From assembly GCA_013265495.1 (NCBI GenBank), contig MU057632.1, positions 914,054-978,053 of the forward strand: 64,000 bases of DNA. Reading direction: 5' to 3'. This stretch comes from Vicugna vicugna. Its lineage: Eukaryota. Under the pieces are notes generated by a model. That model made no database searches. It had not been told where the DNA came from and worked only from the letters and a program-made list of their open reading frames with translations. Below, one piece after another: positions 6,632 through 59,390 of the stretch; the stretch's first letter is position 1, and each line of letters starts with the position of its first letter. Both the position numbers and the translations under genes were made by a program.

Positions 6632-6709
6632 TATCATTTTATCACAACCTCCATTATGCCAACACCACTCTATCATTTTATCACAACCTGCATTATGCCA
6701 ACACCACTC
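6632..6709. repeat. 39-bp tandem duplication (2 copies, 1 mismatch)
   Basis: tatcattttatcacaacct(c/g)cattatgccaacaccactc x2. Confidence 0.95.
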
Positions 6710-7778: not shown

Positions 7779-8298
7779 TAAGATGGTTACTTAATCTTTG
7801 ACAACAAGAAGGTGGGACGTATAACTCCAGATACCTAATTCCTGGTCTGAACATCTCTGTGCAGCGAGAAGTCTGATAGCACTGACACACGTAACAGGGG
7901 TCTGCTCTCCTGTCTGGAGAAATGAGGGCGCTTTCTCTCATAAACTGAAACAAAATAAAAGTAACCGTCATAAGGTGCTTAAGGCATTAAGTTTGAAATA
8001 TAATAATCATGCCAGGTGGAAATATTAAACCCAAATGTATGATACTGTGTAATAGGGAATTTCCTCTTCCTGATGCCTTGACTTCTGCCAGGCAAAATAA
8101 TAACGTATTCTTTAAAAATTCTAACCTTGTTGAAATACTTTAAACTGATCAGATATCTACATATCCTCACTCTAGACTTTTCGGCTTCTGTTTAACCATG
8201 TTGTCTACGTCGTTTCTGAGTCTCACTGTGTTACCACCAGGCAGGTAGGGTTACACACAACCTAGATCAACCGTGTTTCTTGTTGGTAACCATAAATT

Positions 8299-9723
8299 TA
8301 AAGACAACGATGTAAAGAGAAGAGAAAAGCCTTTTCTTAAAGGAGAAAAGTTGATAATTTAAGTGATTTGTTAATCAAAATTTCACATTATTATTGTTTA
8401 CTGTAAATCACTGATTAGAACAGTTTACTAAACCGACACACGTTGGCTCCACGTTAGTCAGAAATCCTATGTCCATAAGAATGGAGAACATTTTCGCTGT
8501 AGCCCAGCATACAGAAGGGAAGTTGTCCCCAAACTGTGTGGACCAATGCTAGAGCATCCCACAAAGTATAAAGGAATTAACTTGCTGGCTTCTTCAGGAC
8601 TATTCAGGTAAAACCTTAAATCAGCCTTCACATTTCTTACCTTATTTAAAATAATGACCTTTAATTTCTTTTACGTTTGGACTTGTTTAGGTAACTTGAA
8701 GAGTGTAACTAAAAACATGTTTCCTGGATTAATCTGGAAGGGTGAGACATTTGTATCTGTATTTAATCTGTGACTTTTTCCCATTTAAAAAAATTGAAGT
8801 ATAAAATGTGTGATCTTTTAAATAACACATGAGAGAAGGAAATTCTTTTAAAAAACACTAAGAATAAAGAATTAAAAATAAAGATTGTAACTGAAACCTG
8901 AAATTTCCCTTTCATACAACATCTGATAACTATTACAACCTAGTTCACATGCAACAAATGTCATTCAGTGTCTGTTGTTCCAGGTACTAATCAGGCCTTA
9001 GGGGAACGAGAGGTCCTCATTATCATGATGCTTATATGCCAGGGGAAAGAAGCAGACGATAAAAGATACACTGACAATACGCCATGAATGTAGGTAGTGC
9101 TGTAAGGAAACGTAATTTGGAAAACAGGGCTAGGGAGTCCCCAGAGTGGTAACCAGGGATGCTCCTTCAGAAGTTTTCAGGACGTGCATCTCTGAGGAGG
9201 GACCATCTAGAATGACGTATGCCAGAAGAGTATTCTAGGAACAGGGGCCTGCAGGGCAGAGGACTTGTGGGCTGTGTCTGAACAGGAAACCTGTTTTTAG
9301 TTACATGCTTCAAGTTACACAAACAAGTCCAAATGCAAAAGAAATTAAAGGTCTTTATTTTAAATAAGGTAAGAAATGTGAAGGCTGATTTAAGGTTTTT
9401 TGGATAGTCATGAAGAAGACAGCAAGGTATTTTCTTTATTCTTAACTTTGTGGGATGCTCCAGCATTGGTCCACACAGTCTGGGGACAAGTTCCCTTCTG
9501 TATGCTGGGCTAGAGGGAAGATATTCCTCATTCTTACGGACATAGGATTTCTGGCTAACGTGGAGCTGCATTGGTTTAGTAAACTGTTCTAATCACTGAT
9601 TTACAGTAAACAGCAATGCATTCTTTTAATGAGAACTTTTGATTATAAAAATCGTTTTAGCTATCAACCTTTCTCTTTAAAAAAGGATTTTTTTCTTTTC
9701 TTTACATCATTTTTTTTTCTTTA
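8299..9723. repeat. Long inverted repeat: arms 8299-8726 and 9283-9723, spacer ~556 bp
   Basis: 8611-8654 is the exact reverse complement of 9355-9398 (44/44); 8500-8567 matches 9445-9512 at 65/68; arms are colinear throughout. Confidence 0.95.
8955..9282 (-). mobile_element. L2 3' fragment, apparently resuming at ~9880-9960 after the right arm
   Basis: cattcagtgtctgt..ccaggtact...tgcttatat...gtgctgtaaggaaa and tgtagggttttgtaggtcttggtaa resemble L2 antisense sequence. Confidence 0.55.
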
Positions 9724-10199
9724 GGAAAGCTAAACTTTAATTACTCAGGCAGTTTTTACAACAAAAACAAGTACCCAAGGACTGGTCTTAAATTTTAGTG
9801 CGTGACTGTACAAAAGAGGCCCATGCGTGGAGGGGACAATGTGAAGGGGACGATGTGAAGAGGGTGGTGTGAGGGGGCAAGATCAAGCTGGGGTAGGGGT
9901 GGTGGGGAGGAGATCCATTCCTGTAGGGTTTTGTAGGTCTTGGTAAAGCCCTGTCTCTCAGTAAGTGTCCTTCCAACGCTATCTCTACAGACCCAAAGAT
10001 AGGTGGACGGATGGATAAATGGGTAGGTAGATAGGTGAGTGTGTATGTTTATATACACACACATACATACATACATGCCCACATATGTTCGTGCATCTAG
10101 GGTTTTTATTCGGCTATTGCAAAATACGATACTGCTCATATGCAATATCCCTAGGGTTCTGAAATGTAAAAGTCAGACTGCTCATGGTAAATTCATTTT

Positions 10200-10341
10200 A
10201 TTTTATTTTTTTATTTTTAAAAAATTGTTGGGGGGGAGGTAATTAGGTTTATTTATTTTATTTTAATGGAGATATTGGGGATTGAACCCAAGATCTCTGA
10301 ATGCTAAGCATGCATTCTACCACTCAGCTATGTCCTCCCCA
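10200..10341 (-). mobile_element. tRNA-Ala-derived SINE (camelid Vic-1 type)
   Basis: ggggattgaaccca...gctaagcatgcattctaccactcagcta (A/B boxes); TSD atggtaaa(t/c)tcatttt at 10184-10199 and 10344-10359. Confidence 0.85.
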
Positions 10342-11720: not shown

Positions 11721-12480
11721 CAAATGATAAATACTGGAGAGGGTGTGGAGAAAAGGGAACCCTCCTATACTGTTAGTGGGAATGTAGTTTGCTGCAGCCA
11801 TTATGGAAAGTAGCATGAAGATTCCTTAAAAAGCTAGAGTTGCCATATGATCCAACAATCCCACTTCTGGGCATATATTCAGAGGAAACTCTAATTTGAA
11901 AAGATATATGATCCCCAATGTTCATAGCAGCACTATATGCAATAGCCAAGACATAGAAGGAAACTAAATGTCCATCAACAGATGACTGGATAAAGAAGAC
12001 ATGGTATATTTATACAATGGAATACTACTCAGCCATAAAAAGGATAAAACAATGCTATTTGCAGCAACATGGATGGACCTGGAGATTGTCATTCTAAGTG
12101 AAATAATTCAGAAAGAGAAAGAAAAATACCATATGATATCAAAAGACAAAAATGAACTTATTTACAAAACAGAAACAGACTTAGACATAGAAAACAGACT
12201 TATAGTTACCAGTGAGGAAAGGATGTGGGAAGGGATAAATTGGGAGTTTGATATTTGCAGATACTAACTACTATATATAAAGTAGATAAACAACAAGTTT
12301 CTACCGTATAGCACAGGGAACTATATTCAATATCTTGTAGTAACCTATAATGAAAAAGAATATGAAAAGGAATATACATATGTATATGTATGACTGAAAC
12401 ATGATGCTGTACACCAGAAATTGACACAACACTGTAAACTGACTAGACTTCAACTAAAAAAAAAATCAAAAGTTAAAAAA
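11721..12480 (+). mobile_element. Younger 5'-truncated L1 (ORF2 C-terminus + 3' UTR + A tail), nested
   Basis: ORF2 C-terminal peptide FAATWMDLEIVILSEI; TSD aagaatatat(t/g)tgcaag at 11704-11720 and 12481-12497. Confidence 0.9.
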
Positions 12481-13758: not shown

Positions 13759-13851
13759 TTTTTTTTTTTCTAAAATGGAGGTACTGGGGATTGAACCCAG
13801 GATCTTGTACATGCTCAGCATGCACTTAACCACTGAGCTATACCCTCCCCC
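13759..13851 (-). mobile_element. Vic-1-type SINE
   Basis: ggaggtactggggattgaacccagg...cactgagctataccctcccc; flanked by ttgtcctttttt direct repeats. Confidence 0.85.
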
Positions 13852-15555: not shown

Positions 15556-15983
15556 ACGAGTGATATCATGTGCTATTTGTCTTTCTCTTTTTGGCTTACT
15601 TCACTTTGAATGATGATCTCCAGGTGCATCCATGTTGCTGCAAATGGCATTATTTTGTTCTTTCTAATGGCTGATTAGTATCCCATTGTATAAATATACC
15701 ACAGCTTCTTTATCCAGTCATCCGTTGATGGACATTTAGGTTGCTTCCATGTCTTGGCTATTGCATATAGTGCTGCTATGAACATTGGGATGCATGTGTC
15801 TTTTTGAATCATGGTTCTCTCTGGATATATACCCAGAAGCGGGATTGCTGGATCATATGGTAAGTCTAATTATAGTTTTTTGAGGAACCTCCATACTGTT
15901 TTCCATAGTGGCTGCACCTAAATACATTCCTAGAATTGACTGTACTTCAATTAAAATGTTTTAAAAAATAAATTTAAAGGAAT
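15556..15983. mobile_element. 5'-inverted (twin-primed) L1 insertion
   Basis: Antisense ORF2 3' segment 15556-15930 joined to a sense 3' terminus gactgtacttcaattaaaa + A-rich tail; TSD aataattatgct at 15544-15555 and 15984-15995. Confidence 0.8.
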
Positions 15984-18747: not shown

Positions 18748-19864
18748 ATAAACAAATGGGACTTCATTACATTTACAAGCTTTTGCACAGCAAAGGAGCC
18801 CATAAACAAAATGAAAAGACACCCTACAGACTGGGAGAAAATATTTGCAAACAATGTAAGAGATAAGGGCTTAATTTCCAGAATATTCAAAGAACTCATA
18901 AAATTCAATAACAAAAAAACTAAACCACCCAATAAAAAACTGGGCAGAAGACCTAAACAAACATTTCTCCAATGAAGACATATAGATAGCCAATGGGCAT
19001 ATGAAAAGATGCCTCTAATTCTCAAATTATCAGAGAAATGCAAATCAAAACTACAATGAGGTATCACCTCACACCAGTCAGGATGACCATCATTAAAACA
19101 TTCAGCAATAATAAATGCTGGAGAGGGTGTGGAGAAAAGGGAACCCTCTTACACTGTTGGTGGGAATGTAAATTGGTGAAGCCATTATGGAAAATAGTAT
19201 GGAGATTCCTTACAAAACTGAAAATACCCTTACCATATGATCCAGCAATCACACTCTTGGGCAAACATCAGGAGAAAACTAATTTGAAAAGACAACTGCA
19301 CCTCAATGTTCATAGCAGCACTATTTACAATAGCCAGGGCATGGAAACACTACCAAAATGTTCATCAACAGATGACTGGATAAAGAAGATATGGTGTATA
19401 TATACAATGGAATATTACTCAGCCATAAAGAAGAATGAAATAATGCCATTTGCAGTAACATGGATGGACATGGGGATTATCATACTAAGTGAAGTGAGCC
19501 AGACAAACACAAATATATGATATCACATTTCATAGGAAAGTTAACAAGAAAATGGCAAAATGAACTTATTTGCAAAACAGAAACAGACTCACAGACATAC
19601 AAAACAAACTTATGGTTACCAAAGGGGAAAGCATAGGAGGAGGGATAAATAAATTGGGAGTTTGGGATTAGCAGAAACAAACTACTAAACATAAAATAGA
19701 CAAACAATAAAGTCCTACTGTATAGCACAAGAAAATATATTCAATATCTTTTAATAGCCTATAATGAAAAAGAATAAATATATATACATGTATATATAAC
19801 TGAATCACTGTGCTGTACACCAGAAACTAACACAATGTAAATCAAATATACTTCAATAAAAAAA
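18748..19864 (+). mobile_element. 5'-truncated L1 (ORF2 C-terminal region + 3' UTR)
   Basis: ORF 19038-19520 [16 protein letters not shown]...[21 protein letters not shown]...[11 protein letters not shown] is L1 ORF2p; agtgtataaaa direct repeat on both sides. Confidence 0.93.
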
Positions 19865-19961
19865 GATACAGTGTATAAAATTAATAATGCAATGAGACCA
19901 ATTGCTCATTTTCTTCCACTGAGGGCTGATTTGTAGTACTATTCAAAAGATTGTCCTAAAC

Positions 19962-20248: not shown

Positions 20249-20427
20249 CAGAGTAGGGATATTTTGAAACTTAAATAATTATCTATAATGTAATGATACA
20301 GGGGTTTTGAAAGAGTAAGTCATGTGGTTATGAATCCTTAGCAATGCATTCTGGGTTGTATCATCTAAATAGAACATAGAAAAGCTGTCTTCAGTCTGCT
20401 TCCAGTTATCTTGTTTCTTACAGTGTC

Positions 20428-20893
20428 TTTTTTTTAAATTGAAGTATTGTCAGTTTACAATGTTGTGTCAATTTCTGGTGCACAGCATCATGTTTCAGTC
20501 ATACATGTACATACATATATTCCTTGTCATATTCTTTTTTATTATAGGTTACTACAAGATATTGAATATAGTTCCCTGTGCTATACAGTAGGACCTTGTT
20601 GCTTTCCTATTTTATATATAGTAGTATCTGAAAATCTCAAACTCCCAATTTATCCCTTCCTACTCCATCTCCCTGCTGGTAACCAAAAGTTTATCTTCTA
20701 TGTCTGTGAGCCTATTTCTGTTTTATAAATAAGTTCATTTGTATCATTTTTTTTTAGATTCCACACATAAGTGGTATCATATGGTATTTGTCTTTTTCTG
20801 GCTTACTTCACTTAGAAGGACAATCTCCAGGCCCATCCATGCTCCTGCAAAAGGCATTATTTTATTCTTTTTTGTGGCTGAGTAGTATTCCAT
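20428..20893 (-). mobile_element. L1 3' end, opposite orientation to the 18748-19864 copy
   Basis: poly-T + aaattgaagta...gatattgaatatagttccctgtgctatacagtagg...ggctgagtagtattccat. Confidence 0.9.
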
Positions 20894-22967: not shown

Positions 22968-23067
22968 TTTTGTTTATTTGTTTGTATTTTTAACGGAGGT
23001 ACTGGAGATTGAACCCAGGACCTCGTGCATGCTAAGCATGCGCTCTACCCCTGAGCTATACCAACCC
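22968..23067 (-). mobile_element. Vic-1-type SINE
   Basis: ggaggtactggagattgaacccaggacctcgtgcatgctaagcatgcgctctacc.ctgagctata. Confidence 0.85.
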
Positions 23068-24869: not shown

Positions 24870-25990
24870 CATGTCTTGAAAGTGCCTGTCTAAGCCAGGC
24901 ACTGCTGTTGGCACTGAGAATACTGCAGAAAGTAAAACAAAGCCCCCTCTTCACAGGGCTCACGTTGAACAAATAAACAGATAGGTATTTTTTGGAGGGG
25001 AAAGTATCATGGAGAAAAATTGGGGAGGGAGCTCAGTGGTAGCGTACCTAGCATGCACAAGGTCCCGGGTTCAATCCCCAGTACGTCCATTAAAAAGATA
25101 ATGAATAAATAAATAAATAAACAAACAAACAAACCTAATTATTTACCCCTACCAAAAATATTAATTAATTTTTAAAAAGTGTGCAATAGCATTATGTCTA
25201 AGATATCTTTTAAAAAGAAAAATTAAACATAAAAAAATGGGAAAGGATATTGAGGTAAGGGAAGAGGCTGTAATTTTATATGGGGTGACTAGGGACGGCC
25301 CCTTTGATACAGTAATATTTGAGCAAAGACCAGAAGAGAGTTGAGGATTGAAGAATGGAAAGAGGGCTCCAGGAGAGGAAAAAGTTGTGCTAGGATGTAG
25401 GCAGACTTTTGTTTAGTATCTGGTGGGGCAGGAAGGTGGCAGCAAGCAAAAGGCAGTGGGCAAGTGGGAAATGATGGGGGATGATGAGCGTGTATGTGGG
25501 ACAGGGATCATGCAGAGTCTGGGTACCACTGTAAGGGTTTTCGTTTTCACTTTGAATGAGATGGGAAGCCATCATGGGGTTTTGAGCAGAGATGCGACAT
25601 GGTCTGTGTTACACTGTAAAATAATTATGCCAGCTAAGATTGGGCTTGGGGAGTGGCATTTTGAGGGCAGAAGGGAGAGGATCGTTAGCAAACCGATGCA
25701 ATAATTCAGACTAGCTGCTGTCTCGGAGCAGCCTGGAAAAAGAGGGGTTGTGAGAAGAGGTTGCCTTCTGGTTATACTGTGAAGACAGAGCCAACAGGAT
25801 TTCCTGATGGGTTGGTTATGAGATGTGAAGGGAAAAGGAGAAAGAGAGAGAGAGAGAGAGAGAGAGAAAAGTCAGGAGGATACTTAGATCTTTGGTTTGT
25901 GCTACATAAAGAATGGAGTTGCCATCCCCTGCAGTGAAGGAGACTGTGGGATAAGCTAGGCTGGAAGGTAAAAGTAGGATGTAGGGCGAA
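24870..25990 (-). mobile_element. L2 fragments interrupted by a SINE
   Basis: gccaggcactgctgttggcactgaga...tgagatgggaagccat...gagccaacaggatttcctgatgggttgg. Confidence 0.7.
25022..25160 (+). mobile_element. Vic-1-type SINE
   Basis: gctcagtggtag...aggtcccgggttcaatccccagtac + (aaat)n tail + cctaatta. Confidence 0.85.
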
Positions 25991-33506: not shown

Positions 33507-33640
33507 GGAGAGGGTGTAGTTCAGTGGCAGAACACAAGCTTTGCATAAATGAGGACCTGGGTTCAATCCCCAGTACCTCCATTTGAAAAAAATACATAAG
33601 CCTAATTACCTACCCCACAAAATAAAAAAAAAAAACTTGA
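33507..33640 (+). mobile_element. Vic-1-type SINE with TSD
   Basis: tRNA-like head and A tail; TSD tagatatgtgcag at 33494-33506 and 33641-33653. Confidence 0.88.
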
Positions 33641-36469: not shown

Positions 36470-36481
36470 CACTTTGTCCTC
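36470..36481 (-). CDS. RIMS1: RIMS1 12-nt microexon encoding EDKV
   Basis: Minus strand reads ...ggatgcttccccaaag|GAGGACAAAGTG|gttaga. It supplies exactly the EDKV between ...LRSNN and VMWVC... in RIM1; phase 0/0; long pyrimidine tract upstream. Confidence 0.93.
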
Positions 36482-36565: not shown

Positions 36566-38879
36566 CAGATCTTACAAAAAACAATTATGTGTTACTTTAA
36601 AGTGTTAAAACACAGATATTTTGAAAAGTAAATGTTTATTCTTACCAAAAAAATAGTCATTGTTCAATCTTTCATTGAAAATGCACAAATCTGGCTCCTG
36701 TTATATGTTGGATACAAAAGTTGGGCACTATAATTTCAGAGTTATCTAGAACTTGGATTATTAAATCTACATTCTTCATAAAACATTCTTCAGAAAGAAA
36801 ACTTAATTTACTACCATATTTAGCCTACCTATTATTGAAAAGACATTTTAAAATGCATAAAATTTGAATGAATAATTATCAAATTACTGTTCACATATCT
36901 ATAGTTACAAATTGGAAAAATCTAAGAATGGAAAATATTTGGAATAAATAAAAATGAGAAAAGAAATATGTTAACTATTTTAGCCATAAATTATCCCATC
37001 AGAAATATTGATTTGTAATATACATTTCAACATTTACAACATCACAGGAAAAACCAAATTAATATACTTTTCCCTTTTAGGCCCAAGATTAAATATTTTA
37101 AGTTGTGCTTTCTTTACTTTGCTTTATGAATTTTTTCCCCAAGGTTGGATAGGGTTAGTAAAGATGGATGAACTCCATTAGGCTTGAGTGTCTGCTCAAA
37201 GGCATTGGTACCTCCTAGTTCAAGTTCCTCTAAGCACTTTTCCTGTTTAAAATGTGAGTTTGACTCTATGTTATTGGCTTGCCTCAAACCTATAACGTGA
37301 AATTAAAGCATTCAACAGCTGCGGGACTCAGCCAGCATTAACACTCAGCCCATGAGCCCCTACCTTTCAGGGTCAGCACCTTTTCAGATTAGACAGAACC
37401 CTTATCATATGAGTTGTTAACTATTTTGAATATCATCCCAGGTCTCATTTGTGAGGATTCATTCCAAAACAGTGCATTCAAGAACTAAAGAAGAGAAAAA
37501 GAACAAATCGGTCTTGTGCACCTTTATGTGCCAGATGCTCTTAATCTAAGGTGCTTCTAGAAGGCCTTTAAGGTAGCATTATGAGGATTAACTAAAACAA
37601 ATAACTTTTAGGAGAAAAACTGAAAACTTTAGCAGCCATAAGAATGGGACCTAAAGAAAAACTAAATATGCATAATTTGAATCATTTAAATTTAATTCTT
37701 ATACCAACCATATGCAATACTTATTACTATTCAGTTTCATCGATAAAGAAGCTGTTATTCGGAAAAGTTAAGGCTTCAAAGATAATCGAATAATAATGTA
37801 TCCTTAAGTATAATAATGTGTCTAACTTACTAAATGTCAGTTTCCTTGGGAGAGGTTTTAGAATAATACCCAACTTACAATTCAAATACACAGCCAAAGA
37901 ATATAATGTTGATTGGAAGGTTCATTTTAATTTCAACTATGATTTTTCCCAATTAGAAAGATATCAAGGGCACTTAAAGCACTCTTACTTTGAAATACAT
38001 CTTTAAGTTAAATTCTATACATGAGTAGATAATATGAGAAATTCTTTAAAGAAACACTGGGAGTTCTTTAGGTATGTGATCATCTTAACTGTTCTGTATT
38101 ACACTATAGACCTACATAAAAGAAAACTCACCCAGACATCCCTATAAATAATTCCACTGTACTAACATAGGGGATATAATAAAGTACAGCACTAAGATGT
38201 ATTCTAAACTAAATATTTATTAAAATTACTCTAGTACTTATAAATAATAATACTGAGTCCTTTATATTAGCATTTTAGTGCCTCAAAAACTGCATATATT
38301 CAAATCACTGTCATAATAGAAGAGAAGCTAATATTTAAGCCGACTAAAGAAACTGCAATGGGCGAGTCTACATCTCATAGAGAAGTTCAATTCTCTCCCC
38401 TACCAATTAAAAAAAAGTGTATTTTGACATACTATAAATATCCAACTAATTTCTGTGAGATCAGCTCAGTATTATATTCTATTAACATGATAATAAATAT
38501 GAAATCACTCTCAAGAGAGGCTAATTACTGCTCTGCACATTATTATATTGGGTTAAATTTAATGCCATGCAGTACACCTTGATTTTACCTTCCTTCAAAC
38601 CAAACATACGTTGCAGAAACTAAAGGATTTTCTTTGTTTTGTTTTGTTTTGTTTTTTTGTACAAGGAGAACTGGTCTTAGCAACTTTCAAGAGTTTCATA
38701 ATTCATGATACTAAATCTACATTGACTACATTTGTTCAGAAAATAAATTTACTCCTCAGGTAGTCTGTTGGTTTGGGATAGTAATCATTCATTAAGATAC
38801 ACACATACAGAAAGTGTCTTTTGTTTACCATTTCCCTAATCCACTACTCTGAGCCTTACGAAAAACAAAGGGTCAACAC

Positions 38880-39140
38880 GAGGGAGGGCACGGCCACGTG
38901 TGCGCGGATGCCCGGCTGCTTCCCACCGCGCACGCGCCGTCTGCGGGGATGCGCATGCGCCGGGGACACTCACGTTGTTGGAGCGCAGCGACACGCGGCC
39001 CCCGCAGCGCGCGCAGAACTTGGTGCGGCAGTAGGAGCACAGGTGCCCACACCCGTCCGCAAACTTGGTCTTGTGACAGATTCCACACGTCGGAGCATCG
39101 TCTTTGTGCTCGCCCTGGTAACGCCTCGCCTCTTCCCCGA
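38880..39140. promoter_or_regulatory. CpG-rich patch over the exon and its donor side, with NRF1-like and E-box motifs
   Basis: Dense CpG in an AT-rich background; TGCGCATGCGC at 38950-38960; CACGTG near 38895. Confidence 0.5.
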
Positions 39141-39187
39141 TTTTCCTCACTTGCTCCTTGTAGCTTTCAAATTGTTGATGCAGTCTC
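38974..39187 (-). CDS. RIMS1: RIMS1 coding exon (exon 3 in human numbering): Rab3-binding helix end plus first part of the zinc finger
   Basis: 214 nt; acceptor ccttctcttttgtccag|G, donor AAC|gtgagt. 1 nt + 71 codons RLHQQFESYKEQVRKIGEEARRYQGEHKDDAPTCGICHKTKFADGCGHLCSYCRTKFCARCGGRVSLRSNN, recognised as RIM1 (RIMS2 differs, e.g. FEMYKEQ). Confidence 0.97.
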
Positions 39188-41059
39188 CTGGACAAAAGAG
39201 AAGGTGGTAGCAAACTGAGTAAGTGATGGATGACCAAAGGGAAAACAGTTTTTCCTAGCAAAGTATAGCTCTTTGAACTAAGGCAACACGTGCGAAGCCA
39301 TTTCCCCACTAATCTCACCTCCAGAGGTGAGACAGGTATTAGCATGTCTTCAGTTAATTTCAGTACTGCTGACTAGCACCGAACCACACGTAGCTGGATG
39401 CTGTAGCACCCTGGTTTTTCCCACACAGTGGAATTCATGTACCCACTCCATGCCTCTGCTTCTTTTGACACCTGGCTTTCAGAGTATCTTGACAGACTTA
39501 ACACTTTACAATTATAATCACGTGGATATGTAACTGAAGCAGAAGTTATACGTGACACAACTATATAACGTGTTCTGATATTTTCTATCTTCTATTGGAG
39601 GTTTAATACTGAATCCTATTTTTCAAAAGTTTGTCACAGTAACTCGATTCCATGGCCCACTGTTTCAGCATGATACATACTTCGGAAAAGATTGTTTTAA
39701 ATTACATCGCTGGGAAATCTGTCCTCCACCAAGTATCTTCCTTCACCCCCATTCCTGGAGACTGGCACCAAGCATTTCATACAGTACTCAGAGTGTACTG
39801 CTTATATGGTTATATACCTTACACTGGGGCTCACTTAGTTTGTTCCAGTCACATTAAGAGTTCAAAGCGTACCTTGCAAATATTGGGACTTTTACATACC
39901 CCAGTCTTCCTTGACCTCTCCCAGGTTACATGCATGAGGGTTGCTACTACTCTTTATTGATCCACTGGAGGTGAGACAACTAAATTCGTTGAGGGAAAGT
40001 ATTTCCTCTAAGATCGTTTATGCTTAGTATCTTTGAAGTTTCCTCCTTTCCCATCGGTCCCAGTCCCAGTAAATCCTTAAGCTTCTACAGATGGAAACTG
40101 TTCACCGTTCTGTACAAAACAGTGTGACATCCAGTGAATCCCCAGTGAAAGGATGCTTCAATTTTGTAAATGAGAGCTGAGAGCATTGTCCTCAGTGTAG
40201 CTAATAGTCATCGACTTTTACACCGAAAGAGAGACTCCTGGGAAGTGGGGGATCAAATGCATCTGTGTATCTGGCCGATTTCCCTGATGTGAGTATCCCC
40301 AGGATCAGAGAACACGTGCTACTGTTAATTCAGGTGGTTAGCCTGATGCCCTACATCTAAGACAACCGTGGGGAACTGGTTCTCCCTGGAAACAGAATCA
40401 CATGAATTAAGTCCAAGCACTGTAGTGTTTGAAGGCTGGGATTTCATTATATTTTCCTTTTAACATCAACAGGTTTTGAGCACAATTTAGTGATGACTTT
40501 AAAAAATTCTGAAATCCCTTTCCCGCTTTGCCAATGGACACTTTTCCTCTTTAATTCCCATAATTAAAGCAAAGCGTTGCAATAGCATATAAAGTAGCTT
40601 AGAATTGGCAACCCTTCCAATTTAAAGGCCGGCTAGTTTCAGCTCATAGAAAGATACTGTGATATTTTATTTAATGAATGCAAGAGTGTCTGATCAATTT
40701 ATTGAAGAGTCATTCAATACACTGAACTTTTTATAGTTTAAACACCATTAATCTAGCCTCAAGTTGGTAGACAACAGCAGTGGATTTCTATTATTTCAAA
40801 AGTAACCATACAAAATAGCACTGGATCTCTTAAAGCTTCTATTAAGGAAAATAATTATTAAGAAATAGGAGCGAGGAAATATCTCTGATCAAAGAGACAG
40901 AAATAAGCACTAAGCAGAGAGGGGGTGGTGTATGAATAAATATTTATTGTTAGAGCAACCAAATCAAATATATTTAGGAAAAGGAGAAAATGAGGCTAAG
41001 GAAACAGTTTCCCTATACACTTACCTTGCGATATAGCACATGGTTTAGTTTGGGTACTG

Positions 41060-59067: not shown

Positions 59068-59250
59068 TGTCTTTTCATCTGTCAGTGGGAGTGATGGTGT
59101 TGCCCATTCCACAGCATCATCATGGGACCTGAATGAGATGTGCTGAGGAAAGTGGAATGTCCCACACATGTGAAAGTCTTAGTATATTTCAGCAATGACT
59201 CATGTAATTTAAAACGTCCTCAAATCATAATGATTAATAAAAAGGGTCAA

Positions 59251-59390
59251 TTCTTAGGAATAGTCATTTTAAAAATTCTTAAAGTTTGCCAGTTAAAATT
59301 TAATATTATAAGAAATGCAATTCCTAGGATTAATAATTTTAAAAATTGTTAAAGTTTGCCAGTGAATATTTCATATGACAAGAAATGTAG
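59251..59390. repeat. 70-bp diverged tandem duplication
   Basis: ttc.tagga...ttttaaaaatt.ttaaagtttgccagt...aagaaatg at a period of 70. Confidence 0.85.

What the first reader, a model, noticed from the sequence alone, without database searches (positions are those of the whole stretch)
8299..9723. ~430-bp inverted duplication of apparently non-TE sequence able to form a long pre-mRNA hairpin in a RIMS1 intron
Seen: the arms 8299-8726 and 9283-9723 are colinear reverse complements with blocks of 44/44 and 65/68 identity separated by more diverged AT-rich patches, with a ~556-bp spacer. I do not recognise the arm as a TE. The right arm seems to interrupt an L2 relic, suggesting it is the derived copy. 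Established: long intronic dsRNA in neuronal transcripts is an ADAR substrate and can alter splicing or yield small RNAs. Inference: patchy high identity could reflect selection for pairing or arm-to-arm gene conversion.
Basis: partly seen in the sequence, partly recalled or inferred. Interest (0 to 1): 0.75.

Follow-up and report, generated by a model that had tools for sequence, protein, structure and literature searches.

The report
Copy-paste repair scar in RIMS1 intron
A 430-base mirror-image duplication really sits in an intron of the synapse gene RIMS1, but it looks like an old DNA-repair patch (a backwards copy of nearby DNA plus a scrap from elsewhere in the genome) that has been decaying since, and nothing yet shows that the RNA hairpin it can form does anything.

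Summary
The inverted repeat is real: arms 8300-8726 and 9283-9717, 88% identical without gaps, 556-bp spacer, in a RIMS1 intron transcribed from the minus strand. Three of three DNA runs laid on it carry the inner junction and no third copy of the arm at 80% likeness or more. The right arm is only part of a ~517-bp insert (9285-9801). Its last ~85 bp match a second locus outside the window. The insert has short microhomologies at its joints, a possible decayed 11-bp target duplication (p 0.01-0.04), and probably splits an old repeat (weak). This fits a single fold-back and template-switch repair event. Selection for pairing is unsupported: G-U-compatible changes are 15 on the sense strand against 17 on the other, and the duplex is no more stable than simulated neutral decay. 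Four L1-type inverted pairs in the same intron form similar duplexes. Left open: the inner 330 bp are significantly more alike than the outer 97, and the perfect 45-bp block covers a strong splice-donor motif. Editing and orthologues in other mammals could not be tested.

The parts
8300..8726 (+). Left arm, the probable template. In the RIMS1 pre-mRNA (minus strand) it is the 3' arm of the hairpin.
   Evidence: over 9370-9612 the left-arm contig of X4, X10 and X7 shows 22 differences from the right arm, the same number as in the window
8727..9282 (.). 556-bp spacer (loop): AT-rich unique part to about 8940, then the 3' part of an old repeat (L2-like by recall, reading on the minus strand)
   Evidence: one 762-nt contig spans both inner arm ends and the spacer in 3 of 3 DNA runs; 9148-9275 matches 25284-25398, p 0.0098 against random windows
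9274..9284 (+). First copy of a possible 11-bp target-site duplication (GTGTCTGAACA)
   Evidence: 9 of 11 match with 9802-9812; p 0.04 over a 112-nt search range, 0.0125 over 40 nt
9283..9717 (-). Right arm, the derived inverted copy; 3-bp microhomology (CAG) at its inner joint
9710..9718 (-). A9 tract on the minus strand at the joint between arm and foreign piece: poly(A) remnant, or slippage at a TCTTTA microhomology shared with 8297-8302
9716..9801 (-). About 85 bp copied from a second locus outside the window; ATTAAA at 9741-9736, 17 nt before the A tract
   Evidence: 9716-9760 matches one other long contig in each of 3 of 3 DNA runs (41 of 45; contigs of 27166, 8243, 12409 nt); a 184-nt contig of X20 matches 9716-9793; chance expectation 5e-10; not found elsewhere in the window
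9802..9812 (+). Second copy of the possible target-site duplication (GTGACTGTACA)
9813..9950 (.). Continuation of the interrupted old repeat (L2-like by recall)
   Evidence: 9825-9932 matches 25428-25541, p 0.02; joint colinear score best of 696 windows, but p 0.06 against composition-matched shuffles
8610..8654 (-). Perfect 45-bp block; holds the only AAGGTAAGA donor-like motif on the minus strand of the window (starts at 8643)
   Evidence: collapsed 45-nt contig in 3 of 3 DNA runs
8641..8733 (-). Candidate 93-nt cryptic exon (acceptor-like CCTTCCAG before, GTAAGA after); stop codons in all three frames; unverified
   Evidence: absent from 119 of 119 RIMS1-like proteins that span the junction; no protein homologue of the right-arm frame
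36470..36481 (-). RIMS1 12-nt microexon (EDKV), the last exon found upstream of the repeat
38974..39186 (-). RIMS1 zinc-finger exon

Best explanation
A germline copy-and-paste repair scar that now evolves without selection on pairing. A break or stalled fork in an old repeat freed a plus-strand 3' end at about 9285 (inferred). It folded back 556 nt on a 3-bp microhomology and copied about 430 nt of its own strand, giving the right arm (anatomy shown, mechanism inferred). Synthesis then jumped to a second template outside the window and copied about 85 nt (second locus shown). That template was either a polyadenylated RNA, primed by the T-rich end, or DNA, by a 6-bp microhomology; I put this at about 55:45. 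The end then rejoined, possibly duplicating 11 bp (weakly shown). Since RIMS1 is transcribed through it, a ~430-bp duplex probably forms in the pre-mRNA and may be edited by ADAR like any inverted repeat pair (inferred from general knowledge, untested). That would be a by-product. Age: K2P 0.13, at or below the 0.14-0.22 of L1-type and tRNA-SINE pairs in the window, so probably tens of millions of years and within the camelid line (inferred; family labels and species recalled).
For: Two-copy arm with intact inner junction in 3 of 3 DNA runs; second-locus match in 3 of 3 DNA runs and in X20. Microhomologies CAG and TCTTTA. 9/11 direct repeat bracketing 9285-9801. Flanks colinear with another old repeat: 550-bp gap here against 30 bp there. 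G-U symmetry 15:17. Sense-strand duplex -528.8 kcal/mol against a neutral mean of -560.7 +/- 13.0, with 148 of 150 simulations as stable or more so. Four other inverted pairs of 370 bp or more in the same intron give -427 to -579 kcal/mol, one with a 547-bp gap. Copy-and-paste events that mix local inverted and distant templates are described (PMC7025897 passages; PMC11724301 abstract).
Against: The inner 328 positions are twice as alike as the outer 97 (p 0.025 and 0.006); a single event with uniform decay does not predict that, and GC content does not explain it (the perfect block is 24% GC). The perfect block covers a strong donor motif (post hoc p about 0.008 for the block, 0.08 for the arm). 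The target duplication and the split repeat are each only weakly significant. 430 nt is far longer than documented local inverted insertions (3-30 bp; 5-34 bp; up to 128 nt). No empty-site orthologue was seen.
Confidence: 0.66

Rival explanations
1. Same origin, but the hairpin has been kept by selection. It masks the AAG/GTAAGA donor of a 93-nt stop-containing cryptic exon in the left arm, or serves as an ADAR substrate that tunes RIMS1 splicing.
For: The only such donor on the sense strand of the window lies in the perfect 45-bp block; an acceptor-like site lies 93 nt upstream; the inner part is more alike than the outer. Intronic inverted Alu pairs can alter exon choice (PMC11263572 passages).
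Against: No sense-strand G-U bias; duplex no more stable than neutral simulations; the 45-bp run is not significant alone (p 0.056-0.14); no such exon in 119 of 119 junction-spanning proteins (a stop-containing exon would not be expected there); X4 and X7 carry a G>A change at 9300 in the right arm; other inverted pairs in the intron are as strong.
Confidence: 0.09
2. The duplication is older than 13% divergence suggests, and the inner 330 bp were kept alike without any role for RNA pairing: by arm-to-arm gene conversion, or because the left copy's core is a constrained DNA element, which would halve the pairwise divergence.
For: Change point at 8395: 23.7% outside against 10.1% inside, close to a 2:1 ratio.
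Against: Over 9370-9612 the left-arm contigs of three runs show the same count of differences as the window, so no recent conversion tract is seen. The outer part is homopolymer-rich and hard to align. The foreign piece differs from its donor by 4 of 45 and 7 of 74, like the inner rate.
Confidence: 0.13
3. Two separate events: a plain inverted duplication first, then a short 5'-truncated retrocopy of an mRNA end inserted at its T-rich outer end.
For: ATTAAA 17 nt before an A9 tract; such a signal occurs by chance at 4.3% of positions; donor locus exists.
Against: I saw no direct repeat around the 85-bp piece alone that would serve as its own duplication (one search list); the one candidate duplication brackets arm and piece together.
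Confidence: 0.08
4. The arms are terminal inverted repeats of a DNA transposon, or two independent insertions of one repeat family.
For: An ancient, highly diverged repeat cannot be excluded: the old repeat in the spacer also drew no other copies at 80% likeness, and no repeat library was available.
Against: Depth over 9458-9586 equals that of the single left-arm contig in 3 of 3 DNA runs, whereas two family members 88% alike would have many siblings above 80%. No direct repeat abuts the outer ends. No Pfam match for the one long frame over the arm. The spacer appears to continue outside the right arm.
Confidence: 0.04

Closest known systems
Local-distant clusters and templated insertions among copy-and-paste structural variants (PMC7025897; passages read)
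   Same: One event combines a locally derived, inverted fragment with a piece from elsewhere, with low copy gain.
   Different: Described in tumours, somatic; this one is germline, old, about 0.5 kb, and held by relatives.
Templated sequence insertion polymorphisms, class 1 and class 2 (PMC5110952; parts 1-2 of 4 read)
   Same: Insert from another locus, of similar size (73-414 bp in the experimental set); poly(A) signal with A tract and possible target duplication as in class 1; microhomology as in class 2.
   Different: Most of this insert is a local inverted copy; the A tract is internal, not next to the duplication; no TTTT/A site on the priming strand; no empty allele seen.
Fold-back inverted duplications and inverted templated insertions (PMC3907307 abstract; PMC11724301 abstract; PMC11292364 passages; PMC7954356 passages)
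   Same: Inverted copy separated from its template by a single-copy spacer, with microhomology at the fold-back point.
   Different: Published local events are 3-128 nt or chromosome-scale; this is about 430 nt and continues into a foreign piece.
Intronic long inverted repeats and inverted Alu pairs as dsRNA sources (PMC5414712 passages; PMC11263572 passages)
   Same: Lineage-restricted intronic inverted pair able to form long pre-mRNA duplex.
   Different: Arms are not a multi-copy SINE; no editing or splicing effect shown here.

Membership tests
TIR DNA transposon or MITE | Multiple genomic copies of the termini | tested here: not met
   Only the partner arm was laid at 80% likeness in 3 of 3 DNA runs; blind to families below 80% and to records the tool drops
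TIR DNA transposon or MITE | Target duplication abutting both outer ends | tested here: not met
   Longest direct repeat 6 bp, about 20 bp off the left end
TIR DNA transposon or MITE | Match to a curated repeat consensus | not testable with these tools
   No Dfam or Repbase library
Class 1 TSIP (L1-mediated) | Target-site duplication of 5 bp or more | tested here: inconclusive
   9 of 11, p 0.0125-0.04
Class 1 TSIP (L1-mediated) | 10-40 A residues 10-30 nt after a poly(A) signal, at the end of the insert | tested here: not met
   ATTAAA + 17 nt + A9 is present but internal; about 430 nt of arm lie between tract and duplication
Class 1 TSIP (L1-mediated) | Insertion at 5'-TTTT/A-3' | tested here: not met
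   The priming end reads GAACA
Class 2 TSIP (break patch) | Donor at another genomic locus | tested here: met
   For 9716-9793 only; donor is outside the window, its distance is unknown
Class 2 TSIP (break patch) | Microhomology at joints, no TSD, no poly(A) features | tested here: inconclusive
   Microhomology present, but so are a possible TSD and poly(A)-like features
Class 2 TSIP (break patch) | Polymorphic (empty allele exists) | tested here: inconclusive
   No skipping joint in 3 of 3 DNA runs; contigs drop rare variants
Short-range template switch or Pol-theta inverted insertion | Inverted copy of flanking DNA with microhomology at the switch | tested here: met
Short-range template switch or Pol-theta inverted insertion | Short copied tract (3-30 bp; median 12, maximum 128 nt) | tested here: not met
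   About 430 nt against the ranges
Local-distant copy-and-paste cluster | Local jump and distant template joined in phase on one haplotype | tested here: inconclusive
   In phase in the window; inner joint confirmed on contigs, outer joint not covered; single origin not shown without outgroups
ADAR-edited intronic dsRNA | Long duplex possible within one transcript | tested here: met
   Predicted only
ADAR-edited intronic dsRNA | Clustered A-to-I changes in the arms | not testable with these tools
   No RNA holder listed; the one possible RNA run did not cover the arm interior
Conserved functional RNA structure | Covariation across orthologues | not testable with these tools
   No orthologue outside close relatives found
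Conserved functional RNA structure | Substitutions biased towards pairing on the transcribed strand | tested here: not met
   15 vs 17 of 32 transitions; duplex energy not below neutral simulations
Known Rfam RNA (miRNA, snoRNA) | Hit at gathering score in the arms | tested here: not met

The most novel reading that the evidence does not exclude
A repair accident created a lineage-specific RNA switch in a core synaptic gene. The inverted copy pairs with the left arm and hides a strong 5' splice site (the only AAG/GTAAGA on the sense strand in 64 kb, inside the perfect 45-bp block) of a 93-nt stop-containing cassette exon. The inner 330 bp were therefore kept alike, and ADAR editing of the duplex could set RIMS1 levels through NMD. 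The scar itself would record fold-back DNA synthesis jumping onto a polyadenylated RNA in one germline event.
Probability: 0.07. Interest if true: 0.65.

Novelty: new member of a known kind. Interest (0 to 1): 0.22.

Why it matters
As read here it is a clean fossil of copy-and-paste repair in a mammalian germline: a mid-sized fold-back copy joined to a foreign fragment, longer than the local inverted insertions in the papers I saw. It shows how long intronic dsRNA can arise without transposons, but the same intron already has four comparable repeat-derived duplexes, so it adds little biologically. It would matter more if the hairpin masks the cryptic donor, or if the foreign piece proves to be an mRNA end, which would mean a DNA-to-RNA template jump.

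Tried and rejected
No whole genome is held for the window, so genome-wide copy number rests on laid contigs. Exact-pattern scans for the arm found 0 matches in metagenome, viral and prokaryote-genome contigs, and 0 for the foreign piece in metagenome contigs; these collections are not expected to hold mammalian loci, so this is no evidence. Sequencing runs: no RNA holder listed. X20 (RNA only by guess) gave one 247-nt contig at depth 2.2 in the spacer with 5 other letters (listed: C>T 9100, A>G 9145, A>G 9159) and none in the arm interior. These are not the T>C expected for sense-strand editing, could be strain or species differences, and are not used. 9802-9990 and the right arm's distal part were not covered; the tool drops records, so this is not absence. 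Rfam: nothing in the arms at gathering score; sub-threshold hits are a simple repeat at 10015-10088 and a T-rich stretch. Coding exon idea: the right-arm frame is open where the left has TAA, but there is no homologue (weak for a 41-aa query) and no such insert in the 119 of 120 proteins that contain the junction motif. Extending the arm alignment past the outer end: p 0.82. Finding the foreign piece in the left flank or spacer: p 0.2-0.9. Whole-window scans for relatives of the spacer repeat were inconclusive. In one search I chose the 7 target regions by eye; 4 gave p of 0.02 or less, 3 did not. In one search two of three chosen targets scored high against random windows, none passed composition-matched shuffles (p 0.06, 0.83, 0.053), and one scored as well in the wrong order. 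Literature: RIMS1 + inverted repeat + intron + editing gave 1 unrelated listing; RIMS1 + poison exon gave 0; none of the 10 listed for RIMS1/camel/alpaca mentions RIMS1. Only an open-licence library was searched and no supplements were read. Look-ups of earlier findings by relatives, by sequence and by one word set showed nothing.

Full report
OBSERVATION. The repeat is real and far beyond chance. Self-BLAST pairs 8300-8726 with 9717-9283 at 83.3% over 443 columns, E 6e-130. A global alignment gives 52 mismatches in 421 ungapped columns, 6 gaps, 32 transitions, 20 transversions, K2P 0.136. The spacer is 556 bp. The quoted blocks are 45/45 and 65/68. It is not an assembly fold-back. Of 24 listed runs, 19 from 8 studies hold 0.83-0.91 of the sampled words of 8000-10100 (one may be the source sample). 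In 3 of 3 DNA runs laid on 8727-9990, one 762-nt contig runs from the left arm through the spacer into the right arm, with the strand change at 8727/9283.

GENE CONTEXT. The exon at 39186-38974 on the minus strand encodes a RIM zinc finger and is 99-100% identical to its 120 best hits, nearly all of the named ones called RIMS1. The EDKV microexon is at 36481-36470. The next exon was not found in the window. The repeat is therefore deep in an intron, about 27 kb from the nearest exon found, and both arms are in one minus-strand pre-mRNA. That the animal is a camelid is my recall from its SINE and L1 sequences; earlier unchecked notes on this genome say the same.

IS THE ARM A TRANSPOSON? No third copy is in the window. 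At 80% likeness, depth over 9458-9586 equals that of the single left-arm contig in each DNA run (40.3, 13.5, 37.0). The collapsed 45-nt block has 1.6, 2.4 and 2.0 times the depth of the unique contig; the tool warns that depth is no copy number, so I take this only as consistent with two. A family whose members are 88% alike would have piled up. The test is blind to very old repeats, since the relic in the spacer drew no copies either, and the tool drops some records. No direct repeat abuts the outer ends.

ANATOMY OF THE RIGHT COPY. The right arm is part of a larger insert. First, 9716-9760 matches one other long contig in each DNA run, 41 of 45 letters, at about single-copy depth; the depth in the next bin is exactly what one contig ending at 9760 gives. 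A 184-nt contig of X20 matches 9716-9793 with 7 differences and a 4-nt gap, and runs on unlike before 9716. The chance expectation for the 45-mer is 5e-10. This piece is not in the left flank or spacer. Second, on the minus strand it ends ATTAAA, 17 nt, then A9; such a signal occurs at 4.3% of random positions. But the left arm's outer end also shares TCTTTA with it, so a DNA-level jump fits too. Third, the inner joint has a CAG microhomology. Fourth, 9274-9284 and 9802-9812 match at 9 of 11 (p 0.04 or 0.0125, by search range). Fifth, the sequences on either side match another old repeat at 25284-25398 and 25428-25541 in order: a 550-bp gap here against 30 bp there. This pairing ranks first of 696 windows but has p 0.06 against composition-matched shuffles. 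The name L2 is my recall. Together these define an insert of about 517 bp (9285-9801). The outer junction itself was not covered by a contig.

MECHANISM. Most likely a free plus-strand end at 9285 folded back over the 556-nt spacer, copied about 430 nt of its own strand, jumped to a second template for about 85 nt, and rejoined. The parts are shown; the order, the enzymes and the single origin are inferred. Fold-back priming on microhomology with a single-copy spacer is described for large human inverted duplications (PMC3907307, abstract) and for short yeast insertions (PMC11724301, abstract). Pol theta primes stem-loops from two base pairs, but its inverted insertions are 3-30 bp (PMC11292364, passages). 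Great-ape template switches have a median of 12 and a maximum of 128 nt (PMC7954356, passages). Insertions templated from distant loci, partly through RNA, are the TSIPs (PMC5110952, parts 1-2 of 4). Mixed local and distant templates are the local-distant clusters of tumours (PMC7025897, passages). The feature works like these. It fails class 1 TSIP on tract position and target motif, and the short-switch classes on length.

AGE. K2P 0.131-0.136 lies at or below that of four L1-type pairs (0.136-0.221) and two tRNA-SINE pairs (0.16) in the window. I infer tens of millions of years, probably within the camelid line. If the outer rate (24%) is the true neutral one, it is about twice as old. No outgroup was available.

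IS THE HAIRPIN SELECTED? Both strands fold into one long stem (-669.9 plus, -644.4 minus), which follows from the duplication alone. Against selection: transitions that keep a G-U pair number 15 on the RIMS1 strand and 17 on the other (p 0.86). The sense duplex (-528.8 kcal/mol) is weaker than 148 of 150 simulations with matching numbers of random changes; these place changes uniformly, so the test is rough. The 45-bp run and the 65/68 block are within chance. X4 and X7 differ from the window at 9300 in the right arm. Four inverted pairs of L1-type relics of 370 bp or more in the same intron give -427 to -579 kcal/mol, one with a 547-bp gap. For something more than uniform decay: a change point at 8395 separates 23.7% from 10.1% differences (p 0.025; outer bias p 0.006). 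This was the second set of tests I ran on the same alignment. The perfect block also contains the only AAGGTAAGA on the minus strand of the window, 93 nt after an acceptor-like CCTTCCAG; post hoc, p is about 0.008 for the block and 0.08 for the arm. The candidate exon has stops in all frames in the left arm. It is absent from 119 of 119 proteins spanning the junction, and the open right-arm frame has no homologue. A stop-containing exon would escape both tests. Conversion, constraint on the left core, or poor alignment of the homopolymer-rich outer part could each give the gradient.

WHAT COULD NOT BE TESTED. Editing, small RNAs, splicing, covariation across mammals, repeat-library annotation and the identity of the donor locus. 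I found nothing in print on this element; these cover an open-licence library only, and no supplements were read. Lineage-specific intronic long inverted repeats are a described class (PMC5414712, passages; the Wang and Leung 2009 survey was seen only as a reference title there).

VERDICT. A real, two-copy inverted duplication, best read as a composite repair scar whose RNA hairpin is incidental (0.66). A selected splice-masking or editing role is not excluded (about 0.07-0.09). New member of a known kind; interest 0.22.

Noticed in passing
window 36490-36377, minus strand: Short RIMS1 proteins from porcupine, leopard, aye-aye and deer (P0008, P0009, P0011, P0015) read through the EDKV microexon into the intron, and that peptide matches this window at 55-76% identity: a possibly conserved truncated N-terminal isoform, or just conserved splicing-control sequence.
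   Followed up: partly
P0103, P0104: Two crow RIMS1 isoforms carry an 18-aa in-frame insert after EDKV, so this intron can host cassette exons in birds; the sequence is unrelated to the arm.
   Followed up: no
window 19407-19872 and 20420-20893: Inverted pair of L1-type relics, 76% alike, 547 bp apart, predicted duplex -485 kcal/mol: a natural control for editing. Three more such pairs involve 11779-12464, 15560-15930 and 19163-19526.
   Followed up: partly
window 6632-6709 and 59248-59387: Local tandem duplications of 39 bp (97%) and 70 bp (85%).
   Followed up: no
window 13776-13847, 22994-23065, 33510-33581 and 10247-10340: tRNA-derived SINE copies; three pass Rfam's tRNA threshold.
   Followed up: no
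window 8845, 8975, 9300: X4, X10 and X7 all differ from the window at 8845 (C>A) and by a TG insertion after 8975; X4 and X7 also at 9300 (G>A).
   Followed up: partly
window 38785-39210: CpG-rich stretch over and just after the zinc-finger exon, in an otherwise AT-rich intronic region.
   Followed up: no
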